Virus record (IMG/VR): IMGVR_UViG_3300001687_000020 | Source: a virus | Taxonomy: Duplodnaviria > Heunggongvirae > Uroviricota > Caudoviricetes | Strand: one strand, 5' to 3' | Length of the DNA stretch: 64,000 nucleotides | Part shown: positions 3,577 to 51,539 of the stretch, piece after piece | Layout: each line of letters starts with the position of its first letter | How positions within the stretch are numbered: the stretch's first letter is position 1 | Position numbers and translations under genes: made by a program | The notes under the pieces: generated by a model | What the model was told of the DNA's origin: nothing | Seen by the model: the letters and a program-made list of their open reading frames with translations, nothing else | Database searches by the model: none

Positions 3577-5616
3577 GTGGACTTTAAAGACTTTAAAGAA
3601 CTGTTTCAAACTCATGTTTTAGAAATACTAGAAAACCAAAAAGCATTATTCATCACTGATACTGACAAGGAGGAATTATGGAATATATATCTTGATAGTT
3701 TTCTTCCTGGAAAAAATAAAATATTTAGAGAAAGGCGCGAATTTGATTGTTCCTGCTGCAGACACTTCATTAAATCTTTTGGAAATGTGGTAGTTATAAA
3801 AGATAATAAGTTGATAAGTATCTGGGATTTTCAAACAGATAATGATACTTATCAACCAGTCATTAACGCTTTATCAGAGTATGTAAAATCCAAACCTATA
3901 AAAGATGTTTTTGTAACGGAAGAATCAGGTTTTGGGACTGACCATAACCTTGAGAGACTCAAAGATGGAACTGTTCATACTTGGGATCACTTTAGAGTGG
4001 ATTTACCTAAGCGTTTCGTTACGATTTCAACTAAATCGGTGGCATCGTTGACTGGAGAACTTAGGGATATAAGAAATGTATTTAAAAGATCTCTAGATGA
4101 AATCTCAAAAGATGCTATTGAAACGATTTTGGATCTTATTGCTCAAAAATCGTTATATAAAGGAGAAGAATGGCAAAAAATATTAACGGAATTTCTTTCT
4201 TTACATAATACATATCACAAATTACCGGAGGCAGAAAAAGATAATTTTTGTTGGATAAAATCAGTTGAAGTCGGAGGAGTTATTGGAAAAGTTAGAAATC
4301 ATTCCATTGGTCTATTGTTGACTGATATTTCACTTGGTGTCGATTTGGATGAGGCAGTGAAAAGGTATGAGAAAATAGTGGCACCGTCAAACTATAAAAG
4401 ACCAAAAGCAATCTTTACTAAAAAGATGATTGAAAAAGCCCAAGAAACTATCACTGAATTGGGTTTTCTTGATTCTCTTGGAAGAAGATTTGCTACGGTT
4501 GATGATATCTCTGTTAATAATATCCTTTTCGCTAATAAAGATACCGCAAAAAGAATGATAGGAGGAAGTGTTTTTGAAGAACTGGGAAAGGAGGTTTCTA
4601 ATAGTCCAAAAACATTTAGTAAAGTCGAAGAAGTTCCTATAGATCTCTTCATTTCTGATATTCTACCTCAAGTCACTAATATCGAGTTATTCCTTGAGAA
4701 TCGTCATATTCCTAATCTTGTTTCTGTTATTGGTCCAAAAATTTTAACTAGTAAAACCATGTTTAAGTGGAATAATAATTTTTCTTGGGCTTATAATGGA
4801 AATATCACTGATAGTATGAAGGAAAGAGTCAAAGCCTTAGGGGGAAGAGTTGAGGGCGTTCTTAGGTTTTCCATTCAGTGGAATGAGAATTTCGATAATC
4901 AAAACGATTTCGACGCTCATTGCATTGAGCCAACTAAGAATGAGATATATTTTCCAAATAAAAAGGAAGTTCATTCTTCTTCAGGAATGCTTGATGTTGA
5001 TATAATTCATCCAAACAAAGAAGTGGCCGTTGAGAATATCATATATACTAACCTCAACAAGATGCCTGAGGGAGTATATACATTCTTTGTCCACGTGTAT
5101 TCTTATCGAAGTGGTCGAAGTGGGTTTTCTGCTGAGATAGAATTTGATGGTCAAATTCATTCTTTTGAGTATCGTAAAGACGTTCGCTCAGATGAGAAAA
5201 TAATAGTAGCAAAAGTGAGTTATTCTCGATCCGAGGGATTTAAGATGGTTAGTTCACTTTCTTCATCTTTACAATCTAAAAATGTTTGGAATTTGGGCAC
5301 TAATCAGTTTATTCCGGTTTCCATATATATGTTTTCTCCAAACTATTGGGACCATCAATCCGGGATAGGTCACAAGCATCATTTTTTCATCTTAAAGGAT
5401 TGTAAAAACGATACTCTACCGAATGGTTTCTTTAATGAGTTTTTGAAAGAGAGTCTTCTGGAACATAAGCGAGTTTTTGAGGCTTTGGGTAGTAAAATGA
5501 GAGTAGAACCATCGGATGATCAACTTTCAGGTTTGGGATTTAGCTCTACTAAAAGGAACTCAGTAATATGTAAATTGGAAGGTAATTTTACCAGAACCAT
5601 TAAACTTATTTTCTAG
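3577..5616 (+). CDS. large hypothetical protein (679 aa)
   Basis: Long clean ORF with SD GAAAGGAG. Cys cluster FDCSCCRHF near the N-terminus. No family recognised by eye. Confidence 0.6.
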   Translation: MDFKDFKELFQTHVLEILENQKALFITDTDKEELWNIYLDSFLPGKNKIFRERREFDCSCCRHFIKSFGNVVVIKDNKLISIWDFQTDNDTYQPVINALSEYVKSKPIKDVFVTEESGFGTDHNLERLKDGTVHTWDHFRVDLPKRFVTISTKSVASLTGELRDIRNVFKRSLDEISKDAIETILDLIAQKSLYKGEEWQKILTEFLSLHNTYHKLPEAEKDNFCWIKSVEVGGVIGKVRNHSIGLLLTDISLGVDLDEAVKRYEKIVAPSNYKRPKAIFTKKMIEKAQETITELGFLDSLGRRFATVDDISVNNILFANKDTAKRMIGGSVFEELGKEVSNSPKTFSKVEEVPIDLFISDILPQVTNIELFLENRHIPNLVSVIGPKILTSKTMFKWNNNFSWAYNGNITDSMKERVKALGGRVEGVLRFSIQWNENFDNQNDFDAHCIEPTKNEIYFPNKKEVHSSSGMLDVDIIHPNKEVAVENIIYTNLNKMPEGVYTFFVHVYSYRSGRSGFSAEIEFDGQIHSFEYRKDVRSDEKIIVAKVSYSRSEGFKMVSSLSSSLQSKNVWNLGTNQFIPVSIYMFSPNYWDHQSGIGHKHHFFILKDCKNDTLPNGFFNEFLKESLLEHKRVFEALGSKMRVEPSDDQLSGLGFSSTKRNSVICKLEGNFTRTIKLIF

Positions 5617-49002: not shown

Positions 49003-49332
49003 TTAGAGTTTCTCTCCTTTCTTCAATCTATCAAACTTAGATTTGGCATTTCTCTCTCTTTCAATATTTCTATAATACTTTTGCTTAATTTTTTCTATCT
49101 TTGGAGTTATAGTATCAACTACTTTAGTACACCCATCACGAACGCAAACTTTCTTTACATAGGTCCTATCAAAATCACATTCTGAAACTATACTTAACGG
49201 AATCCTTCCTTCAATTTTAGCTTTTACATTTTCTTCTAATTGTCCAGATGATACCTTCTCTATATATTGCCAACTATGATATCCAAGAAAACAAAAAAGC
49301 ATAGACCTAAAAATCATCAACCGTCCCTCCAC
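49003..49332 (-). CDS. hypothetical protein
   Basis: 109-aa ORF with a basic C-terminus. Confidence 0.4.
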   Translation of the reverse strand: MEGRLMIFRSMLFCFLGYHSWQYIEKVSSGQLEENVKAKIEGRIPLSIVSECDFDRTYVKKVCVRDGCTKVVDTITPKIEKIKQKYYRNIERERNAKSKFDRLKKGEKL

Positions 49333-49727
49333 GCTTCTTGGATAACTGATAGTTTTTTATCTCCCAATTTCATTCCTGCTAGTGTCAACTCGACTTCTTT
49401 TTTAAACTCACTCATCGTTTGATCTGGTTTCATATTGAAAGGCGATCTTCCAATATAATAATTACTACATTCATCTAATCTAAAATCTAAATCATTAAAC
49501 TCTGCTAAACTCTCAAAAGCATAATATAGATATTCATCATCTTCATTCACATCAAATTCTTTTCTTTTAGGGATATGCATTCCGCCTTTATTAAGTGCTA
49601 AATTGGTTAGATAAAGATAATCCATCATTTCCTTAGATTCACTAATATCGTATTTAGAAAAACAAATACCATAAGCAAAAAAGCAAACAGTTGAACTATT
49701 CGTTACGAAATCCATTTTAATAATCAT
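49317..49727 (-). CDS. DFVTNSS-motif paralog 1
   Basis: N-terminus MIIKMDFVTNSSTVCF is shared with the next two genes. The YYIGRSPF motif is shared with paralog 2. Confidence 0.55.
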   Translation of the reverse strand: MIIKMDFVTNSSTVCFFAYGICFSKYDISESKEMMDYLYLTNLALNKGGMHIPKRKEFDVNEDDEYLYYAFESLAEFNDLDFRLDECSNYYIGRSPFNMKPDQTMSEFKKEVELTLAGMKLGDKKLSVIQEAWRDG

Positions 49728-49741
49728 TTTTCAACCTTTCT

Positions 49742-50158
49742 TTAATCTCTGTAAGCTATTTCGATTTTATCTAATTCTTCTTGCTCTAATCCTATTTTTG
49801 ACATTGAATCTTTAATCTTTTCTTTAAACTGAGATAATGTTTCATCTTCTTTCATATCGAATGGACTTTTACCTATATAGTATTCTTCAGCATCTATCCA
49901 ATGGTGAAATTCTAAATCCACTTCACTACATATAGCACCTAAGTATTCAGGAATATCTATAAATTTATCCATCTCTTCAACAAATTCTTTTCTAGAAGAA
50001 CACTCATAACTTTCATTATCTTTCTTATATTCTTCATATAATTTATCTACTAATCCTTTGTATTTTGGATCACCTAAGCTATATGGTTCTATACTTATTC
50101 CAAAAGCGATAAAACAGGTAGTACTACTGTTTGTCACAAAATCTAATTTAGTTTTCAT
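49742..50158 (-). CDS. DFVTNSS-motif paralog 2
   Basis: MKTKLDFVTNSSTTCF. YYIGKSPFDMKEDET parallels paralog 1. Confidence 0.55.
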   Translation of the reverse strand: MKTKLDFVTNSSTTCFIAFGISIEPYSLGDPKYKGLVDKLYEEYKKDNESYECSSRKEFVEEMDKFIDIPEYLGAICSEVDLEFHHWIDAEEYYIGKSPFDMKEDETLSQFKEKIKDSMSKIGLEQEELDKIEIAYRD

Positions 50159-50168
50159 TTTTTCTCCT

Positions 50169-50513
50169 TTATTCAGGTAATGCCCCTTCTACTTTTAAAA
50201 GTTCCGGAAATTCTATGCCTATTTTTTTCGTCCATTCGCTAGCTAATAAATATTTGAATAGTTCAGGAAGTTTTTCTAATTCTCCACCTTCGTCAAGAGA
50301 AATATTTATGTCAAAAGCACCTTTTTTATAATCACACTCACAAATATTTCCTTCAAAACATCCCATCTCAAATTCTTCTTCTGGATCATATCTATTCCAT
50401 AACTTCATAAAGTAATCAATAAATTCTTTTAATTCCATCTTTTCTTTTGGAGTAACAGTCAAGATAAAACTTGTACTGCTACTATTCGTTACAAAATCAT
50501 TCTTCATTTTCAT
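50169..50513 (-). CDS. DFVTNSS-motif paralog 3
   Basis: MKMKNDFVTNSSSTSF. This member is more diverged. Confidence 0.5.
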   Translation of the reverse strand: MKMKNDFVTNSSSTSFILTVTPKEKMELKEFIDYFMKLWNRYDPEEEFEMGCFEGNICECDYKKGAFDINISLDEGGELEKLPELFKYLLASEWTKKIGIEFPELLKVEGALPE

Positions 50514-50727
50514 TTTTTGCCTCCATTAATTTATGTTTTATCCAAGCATTAGCTAATTTAAAAGCAAGTATTCCCTGCCAATTTGCTTCCATATAAATAT
50601 TTTCTGGCTTAAAGTTTTTAGGCCATATTCCCCTTTTTTGAAGTTCTTCGTATGCTTTAATATGTTCTATGTTATCAGGATCAAACCATTCACAAAATGA
50701 TTTCTTTTTATTAGCACATCCATTCAT
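50497..50727 (-). CDS. hypothetical protein
   Basis: 76-aa ORF. Confidence 0.4.
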   Translation of the reverse strand: MNGCANKKKSFCEWFDPDNIEHIKAYEELQKRGIWPKNFKPENIYMEANWQGILAFKLANAWIKHKLMEAKNENEE

Positions 50728-50942
50728 TCTTTTCCTCTTTTCTCTTTATAAGAAGGAGAGTGTATAGGGCACTCTTCATTTATCCAAAATTCTGTTTTCA
50801 TTCCACCTTTTCCATCAGGCCAAGGAAATCCTTCTCCATGAGCATTATCCATTATTGGGCATGTGCATCCCATTCTAATTGCTTCATCACTCCCTGGATT
50901 GGGAAGATTCTTTTCTCCATTTTCCATCTTCTCTAACCTCAA
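50724..50942 (-). CDS. small Cys/His-rich protein
   Basis: 72 aa with CTCP...H...CPIH. Confidence 0.4.
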   Translation of the reverse strand: MRLEKMENGEKNLPNPGSDEAIRMGCTCPIMDNAHGEGFPWPDGKGGMKTEFWINEECPIHSPSYKEKRGKE

Positions 50943-51240
50943 TTTTTAAGTTCTCCAGTTGCATTTCTTTATCAACCATTTCTTCGACTTTGGCTAATTT
51001 GCTTGCTTTTAGTTTAACCCAACTTTTAAACCTATCATTATTTGCTAGTTTTCTCAGTGCTATTTTCTTATTCTGATGTTGACTTCTCTCTTCTCTACTC
51101 TCTCCTATTGCTCCTGACTCTCGATGAATTATTCTTACTCCTGAGTCTGTTTTATTTTGATGTTGACCTCCTTTCCCACCTGAGCGAAATGTTTGAATAT
51201 CAAAATCTTTTCTAGTTACTGAAAATAGTTTCTCTTTCAT
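50887..51240 (-). CDS. arfB: ArfB/YaeJ-like peptidyl-tRNA hydrolase (RF-1 GGQ domain)
   Basis: RSGGKGGQHQNKTDSGVRIIH matches the GGQ motif region of class-I release-factor and ArfB hydrolase domains. Basic C-terminal tail as in ArfB. Confidence 0.75.
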   Translation of the reverse strand: MKEKLFSVTRKDFDIQTFRSGGKGGQHQNKTDSGVRIIHRESGAIGESREERSQHQNKKIALRKLANNDRFKSWVKLKASKLAKVEEMVDKEMQLENLKIEVREDGKWRKESSQSRE

Positions 51241-51539
51241 ATTATCTCTTCTTCCATATCATCGGTTTCTTCCCAAAATCCCGCCCATATACCAAAATTA
51301 GTTCTTTCTATCCCTCCGTACAAATTAAAACCGCAAAATGGACACACACATCTAATGGTTCTCAACCAAGTGGATGAGAATAACTTTTTAAAGTATAATT
51401 TTAAGAATAGTATAGGTTGGTGGAATTTAAGTCTAGTAATCCATCGTATTTCATAACTTCTTTTTGGTTTCAAATCAACTATTCTATCATTCATAGGTAT
51501 TCGTAAAAGTAGTTTTTCGTTACATTTCGGGCAAAACAT
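51237..51539 (-). CDS. zinc-ribbon protein
   Basis: CPKCN...CVCPFCG. Confidence 0.45.
   Translation of the reverse strand: MFCPKCNEKLLLRIPMNDRIVDLKPKRSYEIRWITRLKFHQPILFLKLYFKKLFSSTWLRTIRCVCPFCGFNLYGGIERTNFGIWAGFWEETDDMEEEII

What the first reader, a model, noticed from the sequence alone, without database searches (positions are those of the whole stretch)
50887..51240. Phage-encoded ArfB-like GGQ peptidyl-tRNA hydrolase
GGKGGQHQNKTDSGVRIIH is a clear GGQ hydrolase motif. The small size (117 aa) and the basic C-terminal tail match ArfB/YaeJ-type ribosome-rescue factors rather than full release factors. A phage copy could rescue ribosomes stalled by host defences (tRNA-cleaving anticodon nucleases, mRNA interferases) or by host shut-off.
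Basis: partly seen in the sequence, partly recalled or inferred. Interest (0 to 1): 0.6.

Follow-up and report, generated by a model that had tools for sequence, protein, structure and literature searches.

The report
Phage stand-alone GGQ release-factor domain
This phage gene encodes a 117-residue protein that is just the peptide-releasing (GGQ) domain of a bacterial release factor plus a small family-specific end piece; it belongs to an already annotated but untested phage family often found inside phage tRNA gene clusters, and it is not an ArfB.

Summary
Window 50887..51240 (-) is a real 117-aa gene with a bona fide RF-1/GGQ domain (Pfam 2.7e-19), and its GGQ aligns with the catalytic loop of RF1. 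The label "ArfB-like" fails on anatomy. The domain is of the RF1/RF2/PrfH type: GGQ-to-RSQ spacing is 28 as in RF1, against 52 in ArfB. The ArfB model scores 27 bits against a cut-off of 100 and matches only the GGQ loop. The C-terminus is not basic: net +1 over the last 42 residues, family median -3 over the last 40, against +13 for E. coli ArfB. Instead there is a conserved helix plus Trp-bearing beta-hairpin found only in this family.

The family is known: PHROG 3122, annotated "RF-1 domain peptide chain release factor" in more than 200 mycobacteriophages. I found no experimental study of it. It has no conserved protein partner. In 71 non-redundant metagenomic phage loci it is linked to tRNA arrays (12 within 1 kb), sometimes with a tmRNA nearby. 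This window itself has no tRNA.

Best reading (inferred): a codon-independent, ribosome-dependent peptidyl-tRNA hydrolase that frees stalled ribosomes during infection. It is a new member of a known kind, of moderate interest.

The parts
50887..51240 (-). Complete gene for the 117-aa stand-alone GGQ protein (stop codon included)
   Evidence: ORF list. Pfam RF-1 E 2.7e-19. PHROG 3122 E 3.7e-35. The identical protein is called on 6 contigs.
51043..51240 (-). Residues 1-66: RF-type GGQ domain core (beta1 14-18, GGQ loop, beta2 34-39, beta3 44-48, helix 54-66)
   Evidence: AF2 model with mean pLDDT 87. A 63-residue RF2 PTC-region fragment (6c4h_v) superposes over 56 alignment columns at 1.2 A. Invariant family residues include F18, G21, G22, G24, G25, Q26, N29, R36, H39, S42, R49, Q54, N57 and A61.
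51163..51171 (-). GGQ catalytic motif codons (G24 G25 Q26)
   Evidence: Sequence read directly. Aligned to the GGQ of RF1 and mtRF1. Invariant in 114 family members.
50941..51042 (-). Residues 67-100: long helix (69-92) plus loop. The N-terminal half is basic and carries near-invariant F71 and W74; the C-terminal half is acidic
   Evidence: AF2 secondary structure. The family profile aligns with RF1 helix alpha7 up to about position 86. Charge per segment.
50911..50940 (-). Residues 101-110: family-specific beta-hairpin 'E-x-x-x-x-G-K-W' with invariant E101 and W108
   Evidence: Alignments A1/A2. AF2 strands 101-104 and 107-110. A profile of residues 62-117 has no PDB match, and in 1.84 billion representative proteins it hits only small proteins of this architecture.
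50887..50910 (-). Residues 111-117 plus stop: non-conserved, non-basic tail. The 41-nt overlap with the next gene (which starts at 50927) spans 50887-50927 and includes this segment
   Evidence: Family tail length is median 6 residues with median charge -1. pLDDT is below 50 for residues 115-117. Downstream gene call at L002 10314 corresponds to window 50927.
51237..51539 (-). Context only: upstream 100-aa zinc-ribbon-like ORF whose TGA overlaps the ATG of the GGQ gene (ATGA). Not a conserved partner
   Evidence: ORF list and sequence. Weak Zn_ribbon hit. Zinc-ribbon neighbours are not enriched across 72 loci, and upstream neighbours share no Pfam domain.
50724..50927 (-). Context only: downstream 67-aa Cys-rich ORF overlapping the 3' end of the GGQ gene. 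No family match
   Evidence: Gene call in L002. No Pfam, PHROG or PADLOC hit.

Best explanation
The gene encodes a member of a phage-specific family of stand-alone release-factor GGQ domains (PHROG 3122, about 110-130 aa). It consists of domain 3 of a class-I release factor (GGQ loop, three-stranded sheet, alpha7-like helix) followed by a family-specific helix end and a Trp-bearing beta-hairpin. It has no codon-reading domains and no ArfB-type mRNA-channel tail. The most likely mechanism is as follows. The protein enters the A site of ribosomes that stay without an A-site tRNA and places its GGQ loop in the peptidyl-transferase centre as RF1/RF2 do. It then hydrolyses the peptidyl-tRNA without reading a codon, so the ribosome can be recycled. 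Because it lacks a probe for an empty mRNA channel, it may act on ribosomes stalled in the middle of messages, for example at codons whose tRNA is depleted or cleaved, as well as on non-stop complexes. Phages would carry it, often together with their own tRNAs, tmRNA and PTH2, to keep ribosomes available during infection. Shown here: the identity, fold, conserved catalytic residues, family-specific C-terminal module, phage restriction and linkage to tRNA arrays. Inferred: ribosome binding, hydrolytic activity, substrate type and biological role.
Against: No biochemical or genetic test of any family member was found in six literature searches. This window has no tRNA or tmRNA, no Rfam RNA, and no other translation-related Pfam family among the 10 adjacent ORFs and 49 other window ORFs scanned or in the JGI Pfam list for the +/-10 kb. 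The linkage is therefore absent for this particular copy. Two thirds of related loci also show no tRNA within 10 kb. How a protein without a decoding-site or mRNA-channel sensor would avoid terminating normal elongation is unexplained. The model predicts a kink at residues 67-68, and the helix and hairpin superpose poorly on RFs (rmsd 6-11 A over 90-109 residues). It is therefore unknown whether the hairpin reaches the decoding region at all.
Confidence: 0.55

Rival explanations
1. It is a true ArfB/YaeJ orthologue. A basic C-terminal tail probes the empty mRNA channel of non-stop ribosomes and positions the GGQ domain.
For: Small size, a stand-alone GGQ domain, and a basic stretch at residues 58-84.
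Confidence: 0.04
2. It works like mitochondrial mtRF-R (C12orf65). It releases the nascent chain from peptidyl-tRNA trapped on split 50S subunits, possibly together with a host Hsp15/RqcP-type S4 protein, rather than on 70S ribosomes.
Against: The C-terminal module on its own finds nothing in the PDB, C12orf65 included. The C-terminal part is acidic, unlike the basic extension of mtRF-R as I recall it (for the phage family). No S4-like or other conserved partner lies next to the gene in 60 loci.
Confidence: 0.15
3. It is a host take-over or shut-off factor. By hydrolysing peptidyl-tRNA on, or blocking the A site of, host ribosomes indiscriminately, it aborts host translation and hands ribosomes to phage messages.
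For: Lacking any codon or mRNA sensor would make it unselective. The gene sits among replication and early-type genes in many phages: between the DNA polymerase and UvsX genes in Catera, and next to UvsW, DnaB, UvsY and PolB genes in metagenomic loci. In prophiGD54-2 it lies in the predicted early block (PMC8092301).
Against: Phage and host messages use the same ribosomes, so an unselective terminator would hurt the phage as well. Co-location with tRNAs, tmRNA and PTH2 points to maintaining translation rather than stopping it.
Confidence: 0.12
4. It serves termination in phages that change the meaning of a stop codon, for example by compensating for suppressor tRNAs.
For: tRNAs with a CUA anticodon lie within about 2 kb of the gene in 4 of 71 loci.
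Against: The protein has no codon-recognition domain. Coding density in those loci and in the window does not rise when TAG or TGA is read as sense: 0.82-0.89 under the standard code. Most carriers have no suppressor tRNA nearby.
Confidence: 0.04
5. It is a decaying fragment of a captured release-factor gene without function.
For: It covers only about one third of an RF.
Against: There are more than 2000 homologues of constant length with 53% mean column identity. The catalytic residues are invariant, and the conserved C-terminal module is absent from RFs.
Confidence: 0.02

Closest known systems
Phage 'RF-1 domain peptide chain release factor' proteins (PHROG 3122), e.g. Catera gp202 and its Bxz1 homologue, EniyanLRS gp129, Tunturi_3 gp125
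   Same: Same family. The query is 48-53% identical to them over residues 1-108. Size is the same (about 113 aa), as is the architecture: GGQ domain plus C-terminal helix-hairpin. All are phage-borne.
   Different: The query comes from an uncultured T4-like phage with 31% GC, unrelated to those phages (capsid about 25% identical to any cultured phage). In this window there are no tRNAs nearby. The function is untested in every member.
Domain 3 of bacterial class-I release factors RF1/RF2 (and mitochondrial mtRF1/mtRF1a)
   Different: Domains 1, 2 and 4 are absent, so there is no PxT/SPF codon reader and no RF3-binding domain. NCBIfam scores are 59-66 bits against cut-offs of 370-423. The end of the helix and the hairpin have no sequence counterpart in RFs.
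PrfH (RFH), the release-factor homologue that rescues ribosomes damaged in the decoding centre and is paired with RtcB2
   Different: PrfH has an N-terminal ribosome-recognition domain of about 100 residues that is absent here. The score is below the cut-off of 166.65. No RtcB appears in the window or among neighbours in related loci.
C12orf65 / mtRF-R (mitochondrial rescue factor acting on split large subunits with MTRES1)
   Same: A small protein made of an RF-type GGQ domain without the ArfB insertion plus a helical C-terminal extension. The profile hit is E 3.7e-8.
   Different: The C-terminal module is unrelated in sequence and not basic. No S4-type partner gene was found.
ArfB/YaeJ and ICT1, and the 'insertion-less ArfB' proteins of Gemmatimonadota and Planctomycetota seen here
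   Same: Stand-alone GGQ hydrolases of similar size. The GGQ domain of the insertion-less cellular proteins is 48-69% identical to the query.
   Different: Those proteins carry the Pro/Arg/Lys-rich tail (+8 to +22 over the last 40 residues; +13 in EcArfB) that matches ArfB model positions 72-138. The query and its family have an acidic-to-neutral helix-hairpin instead.

Membership tests
Bacterial-type release-factor GGQ domain (Pfam RF-1, PF00472) | Score above Pfam's gathering threshold | tested here: met
   69.6 bits against a cut-off of 35, E 2.7e-19, residues 6-75.
Bacterial-type release-factor GGQ domain (Pfam RF-1, PF00472) | GGQ tripeptide in register with the catalytic loop of RF1/RF2 | tested here: met
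   FRSGGKGGQHQNKTDS aligns with FRSSGAGGQHVNTTDS of RF1. G24, G25 and Q26 are invariant in 114 homologues.
Bacterial-type release-factor GGQ domain (Pfam RF-1, PF00472) | Domain-3 fold (three-stranded sheet, GGQ loop, long helix) | tested here: met
Bacterial-type release-factor GGQ domain (Pfam RF-1, PF00472) | Ribosome-dependent peptidyl-tRNA hydrolase activity | not testable with these tools
   Needs a biochemical release assay.
Phage stand-alone RF-1 domain family (PHROG 3122) | Near full-length match to the family profile | tested here: met
   E 3.7e-35, residues 2-111 on profile positions 21-130 of 136.
Phage stand-alone RF-1 domain family (PHROG 3122) | Conserved C-terminal module (F71, W74, E101, G106, W108) and a size of 110-130 aa | tested here: met
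   Alignments A1/A2. The module profile finds 545 clusters, all small proteins with the module at about residues 62-120.
Phage stand-alone RF-1 domain family (PHROG 3122) | Carried by phages or prophages | tested here: met
   The window has portal, capsid, DNA polymerase and DnaB genes. Relatives are in IMG/VR contigs, mycobacteriophages and prophage-like regions.
ArfB / YaeJ (NCBIfam NF006718) | Score above the curated cut-off over the whole model | tested here: not met
   27.4 bits against a cut-off of 100. Only residues 6-38 match, on model positions 10-42 of 140.
ArfB / YaeJ (NCBIfam NF006718) | Strongly basic C-terminal tail that enters the empty mRNA channel | tested here: not met
   Net charge is +1 over the last 42 residues and -1 over the last 30. 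The family median over the last 40 is -3 (range -7 to +3), against +13 for EcArfB. No match to the tail half of the ArfB model, unlike the control proteins.
ArfB / YaeJ (NCBIfam NF006718) | ArfB/ICT1-type GGQ domain with the insertion between strands 2 and 3 | tested here: not met
   The distance from the Q of GGQ to the Q of RSQ is 28, as in RF1, against 52 in EcArfB. This feature is not universal, since insertion-less tail-bearing relatives exist, so it weighs less than the tail.
ArfB / YaeJ (NCBIfam NF006718) | Rescue of non-stop ribosomes (complementation of ssrA arfA) | not testable with these tools
   A genetic or biochemical experiment is required.
Canonical RF1 / RF2 | Domains 1, 2 and 4 with the PxT or SPF codon-recognition motif | tested here: not met
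   The protein has 117 aa and only domain 3 is covered. prfA scores 59-64 bits and prfB 66 bits, against cut-offs of 370-423.
PrfH (TIGR03072) | Full-length match including the N-terminal ribosome-recognition domain | tested here: not met
   67.7 bits against a cut-off of 166.65. Only model positions 103-177 of 200 match. A genuine PrfH (L142) scores 211 bits.
PrfH (TIGR03072) | Operon with an RtcB RNA ligase | tested here: not met
   No RtcB in the +/-10 kb gene list of the contig or among recurrent neighbours in 72 loci.
C12orf65 / mtRF-R | Basic C-terminal helical extension and an S4-domain partner (MTRES1-like) | tested here: not met
   The C-terminal half is acidic. The module has no PDB match. 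Upstream neighbours in 60 loci share no Pfam domain. Whether a host S4 protein is used cannot be tested here.

The most novel reading that the evidence does not exclude
The phage family may be a distinct architectural class of stand-alone GGQ rescue factor, alongside ArfB/ICT1, mtRF-R and PrfH. In this reading it descends from a tail-bearing ArfB-like or RF-like ancestor and exchanged the mRNA-channel probe for a Trp-bearing hairpin. That would let it release ribosomes stalled in the middle of intact messages, which tmRNA and ArfB handle poorly. Phages would deploy it, often with their tRNA arrays, as a counter-measure to tRNA-cleaving or tRNA-depleting host immunity.
Probability: 0.25. Interest if true: 0.7.

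Novelty: new member of a known kind. Interest (0 to 1): 0.38.

Why it matters
Phages that bring their own tRNAs are now understood to be escaping host defences that cut or deplete tRNAs. A ribosome stalled by such a defence still holds a peptidyl-tRNA, and mRNA still fills its channel. This is a state for which bacteria have no general single-protein rescue factor. A widespread phage protein consisting only of the peptide-releasing domain, without a codon reader or mRNA-channel sensor, is a natural candidate for clearing such ribosomes. It has more than 2000 homologues and is repeatedly embedded in tRNA arrays beside tmRNA and PTH2. If that is confirmed, it would add a minimal release factor to the known rescue systems and a new item to the phage counter-defence repertoire. 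The protein is small and soluble-looking, tractable carriers exist (mycobacteriophages of clusters C and M), and the assays are standard. For this window the finding is an annotation refinement: the gene is a member of PHROG 3122, not an ArfB.

Tried and rejected
1. A conserved protein partner. All-against-all BLAST of every ORF within 4 kb in 72 non-redundant loci found none. The commonest neighbour, a UvsW-type helicase, occurs in 8 of 72 loci. Other recurrent neighbours are DnaB, UvsY, PolB, ThyX and a weak PTH2 hit.

2. The upstream zinc-ribbon ORF as a trans-acting 'tail'. This was prompted by the ZnR proteins reported in PrfH neighbourhoods (PMC6514570). Small double-CxxC ORFs flank the gene in 6 of 72 loci upstream and 4 of 72 downstream, against a background of 4.9%, so there is no enrichment.

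3. An S4/Hsp15-like partner, as for mtRF-R with MTRES1. Sixty upstream neighbours, including the 'RNA binding protein' of EniyanLRS, share no Pfam domain.

4. An RtcB partner, as for PrfH. None was found.

5. Stop-codon recoding. Coding density does not change when TAG or TGA is read as sense.

6. Homology of the C-terminal module to RF domain 4, the ArfB tail or the C12orf65 extension. The best PDB E-value is 0.5, which is chance level.

7. Defence or anti-defence context. There are no PADLOC hits for the gene or nine neighbours and no PHROG hits for eight adjacent ORFs.

8. RNA elements. No tRNA, tmRNA or Rfam family is present in the window. The promoter and terminator scan gave nothing above shuffles for promoters.

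9. DNA-level relatives of the region among cultured phages. None were found.

10. A fold search against AFDB50. The library was not available.

11. Experimental literature on the family. Six searches found only annotation-level mentions.

Full report
**1. The observation**

The window carries an ATG-started ORF of 117 codons at 50887..51240 on the minus strand. Its product reads MKEKLFSVTRKDFDIQTFRSGGKGGQHQNKTDSGVRIIHRESGAIGESREERSQHQNKK... The GGQ codons (GGA GGT CAA) are at 51163-51171.

- The match to the release-factor GGQ domain is far above chance: Pfam RF-1 E 2.7e-19, 69.6 bits against a cut-off of 35, residues 6-75.
- phmmer against PDB sequences gives RF1 and mtRF1 chains at about E 1e-12 to 3e-13, with GGQ aligned to GGQ.
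- The + strand ORFs across the same stretch are shadows. The minus-strand frame is the one conserved in more than 2000 homologues, and the identical protein is called on six independent metagenome contigs.

**2. What the window is**

It is a phage.

- It has a portal protein, a T4-type major head protein, a prohead protease, a family-B DNA polymerase and a DnaB helicase.
- The capsid protein is only about 25% identical to that of any cultured phage, and the region has no DNA-level relative among 50,697 phage records.
- The window matches a 66.6-kb JGI metagenome contig.
- The gene sits in a long minus-strand block of auxiliary genes: glycosyltransferases, an epimerase, a sulfotransferase, DnaJ, SIS and QueC.
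- Its ATG overlaps the TGA of an upstream 100-aa zinc-ribbon-like ORF. Its last 41 nt overlap the start of a 67-aa Cys-rich ORF.
- The window has no tRNA or tmRNA, no Rfam family, and no further translation-related Pfam family among the ORFs scanned or in the JGI Pfam list.

**3. Anatomy of the protein**

An AlphaFold2 model built on 114 homologues has mean pLDDT 87.

- Its elements are strand 14-18, the GGQ loop, strands 34-39 and 44-48, helix 54-66, a long helix 69-92, and a beta-hairpin 101-104/107-110.
- The GGQ core superposes on an RF2 fragment at 1.2 A over 56 columns. Including the helix raises the rmsd to 4.5-7 A, so the helix is oriented or kinked differently from RF alpha7.
- In the family alignment the invariant or near-invariant positions are those of the RF GGQ domain: F18, G21, G22, G24, G25, Q26, N29, R36, H39, S42, R49, Q54, N57 and A61.
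- Four further positions lie outside it: F71, W74, E101 and W108. What follows W108 is short (median 6 residues), variable and slightly acidic.

**4. Is it ArfB-like?**

It shares the stand-alone GGQ architecture but not the features that define ArfB.

- (i) The NCBIfam ArfB model gives 27.4 bits against a cut-off of 100 and touches only the GGQ loop. The PrfH, RF2 and RF1 models give 59-68 bits on the domain.
- (ii) BLASTP against E. coli ArfB, translated from the K-12 genome, aligns 26 residues.
- (iii) The Q of GGQ and the Q of the ERSQ motif are 28 residues apart, as in RF1. In ArfB they are 52 apart because of its insertion.
- (iv) The tail is not basic. The last 42 residues carry net +1 and the last 30 net -1. 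The family median over the last 40 is -3 (range -7 to +3). EcArfB has +13.

A positive control turned up by accident. Genomes of Gemmatimonadota, Planctomycetota and others encode 99-157-aa proteins with two relevant features:

- Their GGQ domain is 48-69% identical to the query and also lacks the insertion.
- They end in a Pro/Arg/Lys-rich tail (+8 to +22) that matches positions 72-138 of the ArfB model and aligns with EcArfB end to end.

An ArfB tail is therefore readily detected when it is present. It is absent here.

**5. The C-terminal module is family-specific**

A profile of residues 62-117 finds nothing in the PDB; the best E-value is 0.5. In 1.84 billion representative proteins it finds 545 clusters at E up to 0.001. 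All 150 listed hits are small proteins (43-193 aa). In the full-length ones the module sits at about residues 62-120, that is, always behind a GGQ domain. The shorter ones look like fragments. It is therefore neither the ArfB tail, nor the C12orf65 extension, nor recognisably the RF switch loop or domain 4.

**6. The family is known and phage-borne**

- PHROG 3122 ('RF-1 domain peptide chain release factor') matches at E 3.7e-35 almost end to end.
- tblastn finds 250 phage records, 209 of them covering at least 80% of the query. Most are mycobacteriophages (206 records). Those listed are Bxz1-like records of about 150-160 kb, about 80-kb records such as EniyanLRS and the M. abscessus prophages, and WXIN. 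Tunturiibacter phages are also hit. The products are annotated 'RF-1 peptide chain release factor'.
- Among representatives of 185,579 species only about 15 full-length copies appeared, in unrelated phyla. The two isolate genomes examined showed phage-type neighbours: a serine integrase, a resolvase and a NinI phosphatase in one, and ribonucleotide reductase plus DNA methyltransferases in the other.
- I found no experimental study. The literature holds only annotation-level remarks. An RF-1-domain CDS is the core gene of one class of Mycobacterium tRNA arrays, with a suggested link to ribosome rescue (PMC5966550). [quoted passage not shown] Huge phages encode release factors, tmRNA and SmpB (PMC7162821). 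The survey of release-factor evolution describes ArfB and PrfH but not this phage family (PMC6514570).

**7. Genomic context in relatives**

Eighty IMG/VR loci were fetched and reduced to 71 non-redundant ones.

- 25 have a tRNA or tmRNA within 10 kb, 18 within 3 kb, 12 within 1 kb and 7 within 100 bp. Thirteen carry five or more tRNAs.
- tRNA density falls from 0.31 per kb next to the gene to about 0.1 per kb at 5-9 kb. Of 199 tRNAs, 182 are on the same strand as the gene.
- In several loci the gene is embedded in the array, for example L027, L034, L063, L072, L079 and L082.
- tmRNA genes lie a few kb away in L045 and L062/L067. A weak PTH2-like neighbour recurs in four loci.
- In phage EniyanLRS the gene is 1.8 kb downstream of a 24-tRNA array.
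- No protein-coding neighbour is conserved. The commonest, a UvsW-type helicase, occurs in 8 of 72 loci, and the others are replication and recombination genes. In Catera the gene lies between the DNA polymerase and UvsX genes.
- Zinc-ribbon neighbours are not enriched, and upstream neighbours share no Pfam domain.
- tRNAs with a CUA anticodon lie near the gene in four loci, but coding density gives no sign of stop-codon recoding.

**8. Mechanism**

Shown: an intact RF-type catalytic domain under strong conservation, without codon-reading domains and without an mRNA-channel tail; a conserved family-specific C-terminal module; phage restriction; and partial but real linkage to tRNA arrays and other rescue genes.

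Inferred: the protein docks in the A site with GGQ in the peptidyl-transferase centre, as RF domain 3 does, and hydrolyses peptidyl-tRNA independently of any codon.

tmRNA and ArfB both need an empty mRNA channel. PrfH shows that an RF-type GGQ domain can act with mRNA still in place (PMC9304027). A factor without a channel probe would therefore suit ribosomes stalled inside messages, such as those produced by tRNA depletion or cleavage. It would also suit the burst of stalled complexes that follows host mRNA decay. That fits its frequent place beside phage tRNAs, tmRNA and PTH2.

Weak points:

- There is no biochemical evidence.
- How normal elongation would be spared is unexplained.
- It is uncertain whether the hairpin reaches the decoding region or packs back on the domain.
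- Linked translation genes are absent in this particular window.

Rivals are action on split 50S subunits (mtRF-R-like), a shut-off role, a recoding-related role, and a dead fragment. The last is excluded by the conservation pattern.

**9. Verdict**

The gene is a new member of a known, annotated, functionally untested phage family. Two points go beyond existing annotation. First, the family has its own C-terminal module in place of an ArfB tail. Second, the tRNA-array linkage noted for mycobacterial elements extends to diverse uncultured phages.

Interest is moderate. A specialist would not be surprised by the gene, but the family offers a clean, testable candidate for a minimal phage-encoded ribosome-rescue factor.

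Noticed in passing
Loci L104, L106, L107, L109, L111, L112, L116, L122, L124, L125, L128, L130, L141, L144, L149, L152-L154, L157, L160, L161, L165 (GGQ ORFs listed): Gemmatimonadota, Planctomycetota/Gemmatales, Sumerlaeota and Rhodothermales genomes encode 99-157-aa proteins that join an RF-type GGQ domain (without the 24-residue ArfB insertion) to a genuine ArfB-type basic tail. The tail carries +8 to +22 over the last 40 residues and matches ArfB model positions 72-138 at 46-72 bits, below the cut-off of 100. They look like an 'insertion-less ArfB' that NCBI's ArfB model would not name. Their GGQ domain is the closest cellular relative of the phage family (48-69% identity).
   Followed up: partly
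window 49317-50513 (-): Three tandem paralogous ORFs (136, 138 and 114 aa) just downstream of the GGQ gene share an invariant N-terminal motif DFVTNSS and 26-35% identity. They have no Pfam, PHROG or PADLOC match.
   Followed up: partly
window 3577-5616 (+): A 679-aa protein of unknown function (phrog_1735, 863 bits) is 53-56% identical to proteins of Bacillus phages BCP78 and TsarBomba. tblastn finds matches to it in 554 phage records from very different hosts (459 covering at least 80% of it). The capsid protein of this phage is only about 25% identical to any cultured phage. This is unusually strong conservation for an uncharacterised protein.
   Followed up: no
L025 8982-9059, L032 11050-11125, L052 10549-10627, L071 9112-9186: tRNAs with a CUA (amber-reading) anticodon lie within about 2 kb of the GGQ gene in four unrelated phage loci. 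Local coding density shows no sign of TAG recoding.
   Followed up: partly
L045 4720-5109; L062 and L067 1189-1552: Phage-borne tmRNA genes (tag peptides ADNFADDYALAIAA and ANEQFALAA) sit inside tRNA arrays 5-9 kb from the GGQ gene.
   Followed up: no
window 51237-51539 (-) and 50724-50927 (-): The GGQ gene is flanked by two small Cys-rich orphan ORFs. One is a 100-aa double-CxxC protein with an ATGA overlap. The other is a 67-aa protein whose start overlaps the GGQ gene's 3' end by 41 nt. They appear translationally coupled in this phage but are not conserved next to the gene elsewhere.
   Followed up: yes
window 1-64000 (various): The phage carries an unusual set of auxiliary genes. These include a PP2C phosphatase and a protein kinase, a papain-family protease, a DMP19-like (DNA-mimic) protein, nucleoside deoxyribosyltransferase-like, ThyX, QueC, DnaJ, SIS and Band-7 proteins, a sulfotransferase, an epimerase and at least five glycosyltransferases.
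   Followed up: no
L168 4768-4998 (Mycobacterium phage EniyanLRS gene 128): The 76-aa gene directly upstream of, and overlapping, the RF-1 gene is annotated 'RNA binding protein' but has no Pfam match. A similar-sized hypothetical gene precedes the gene in Tunturi_3 (L169 4766-5005). Remote homology between these small upstream genes was not tested beyond Pfam.
   Followed up: partly
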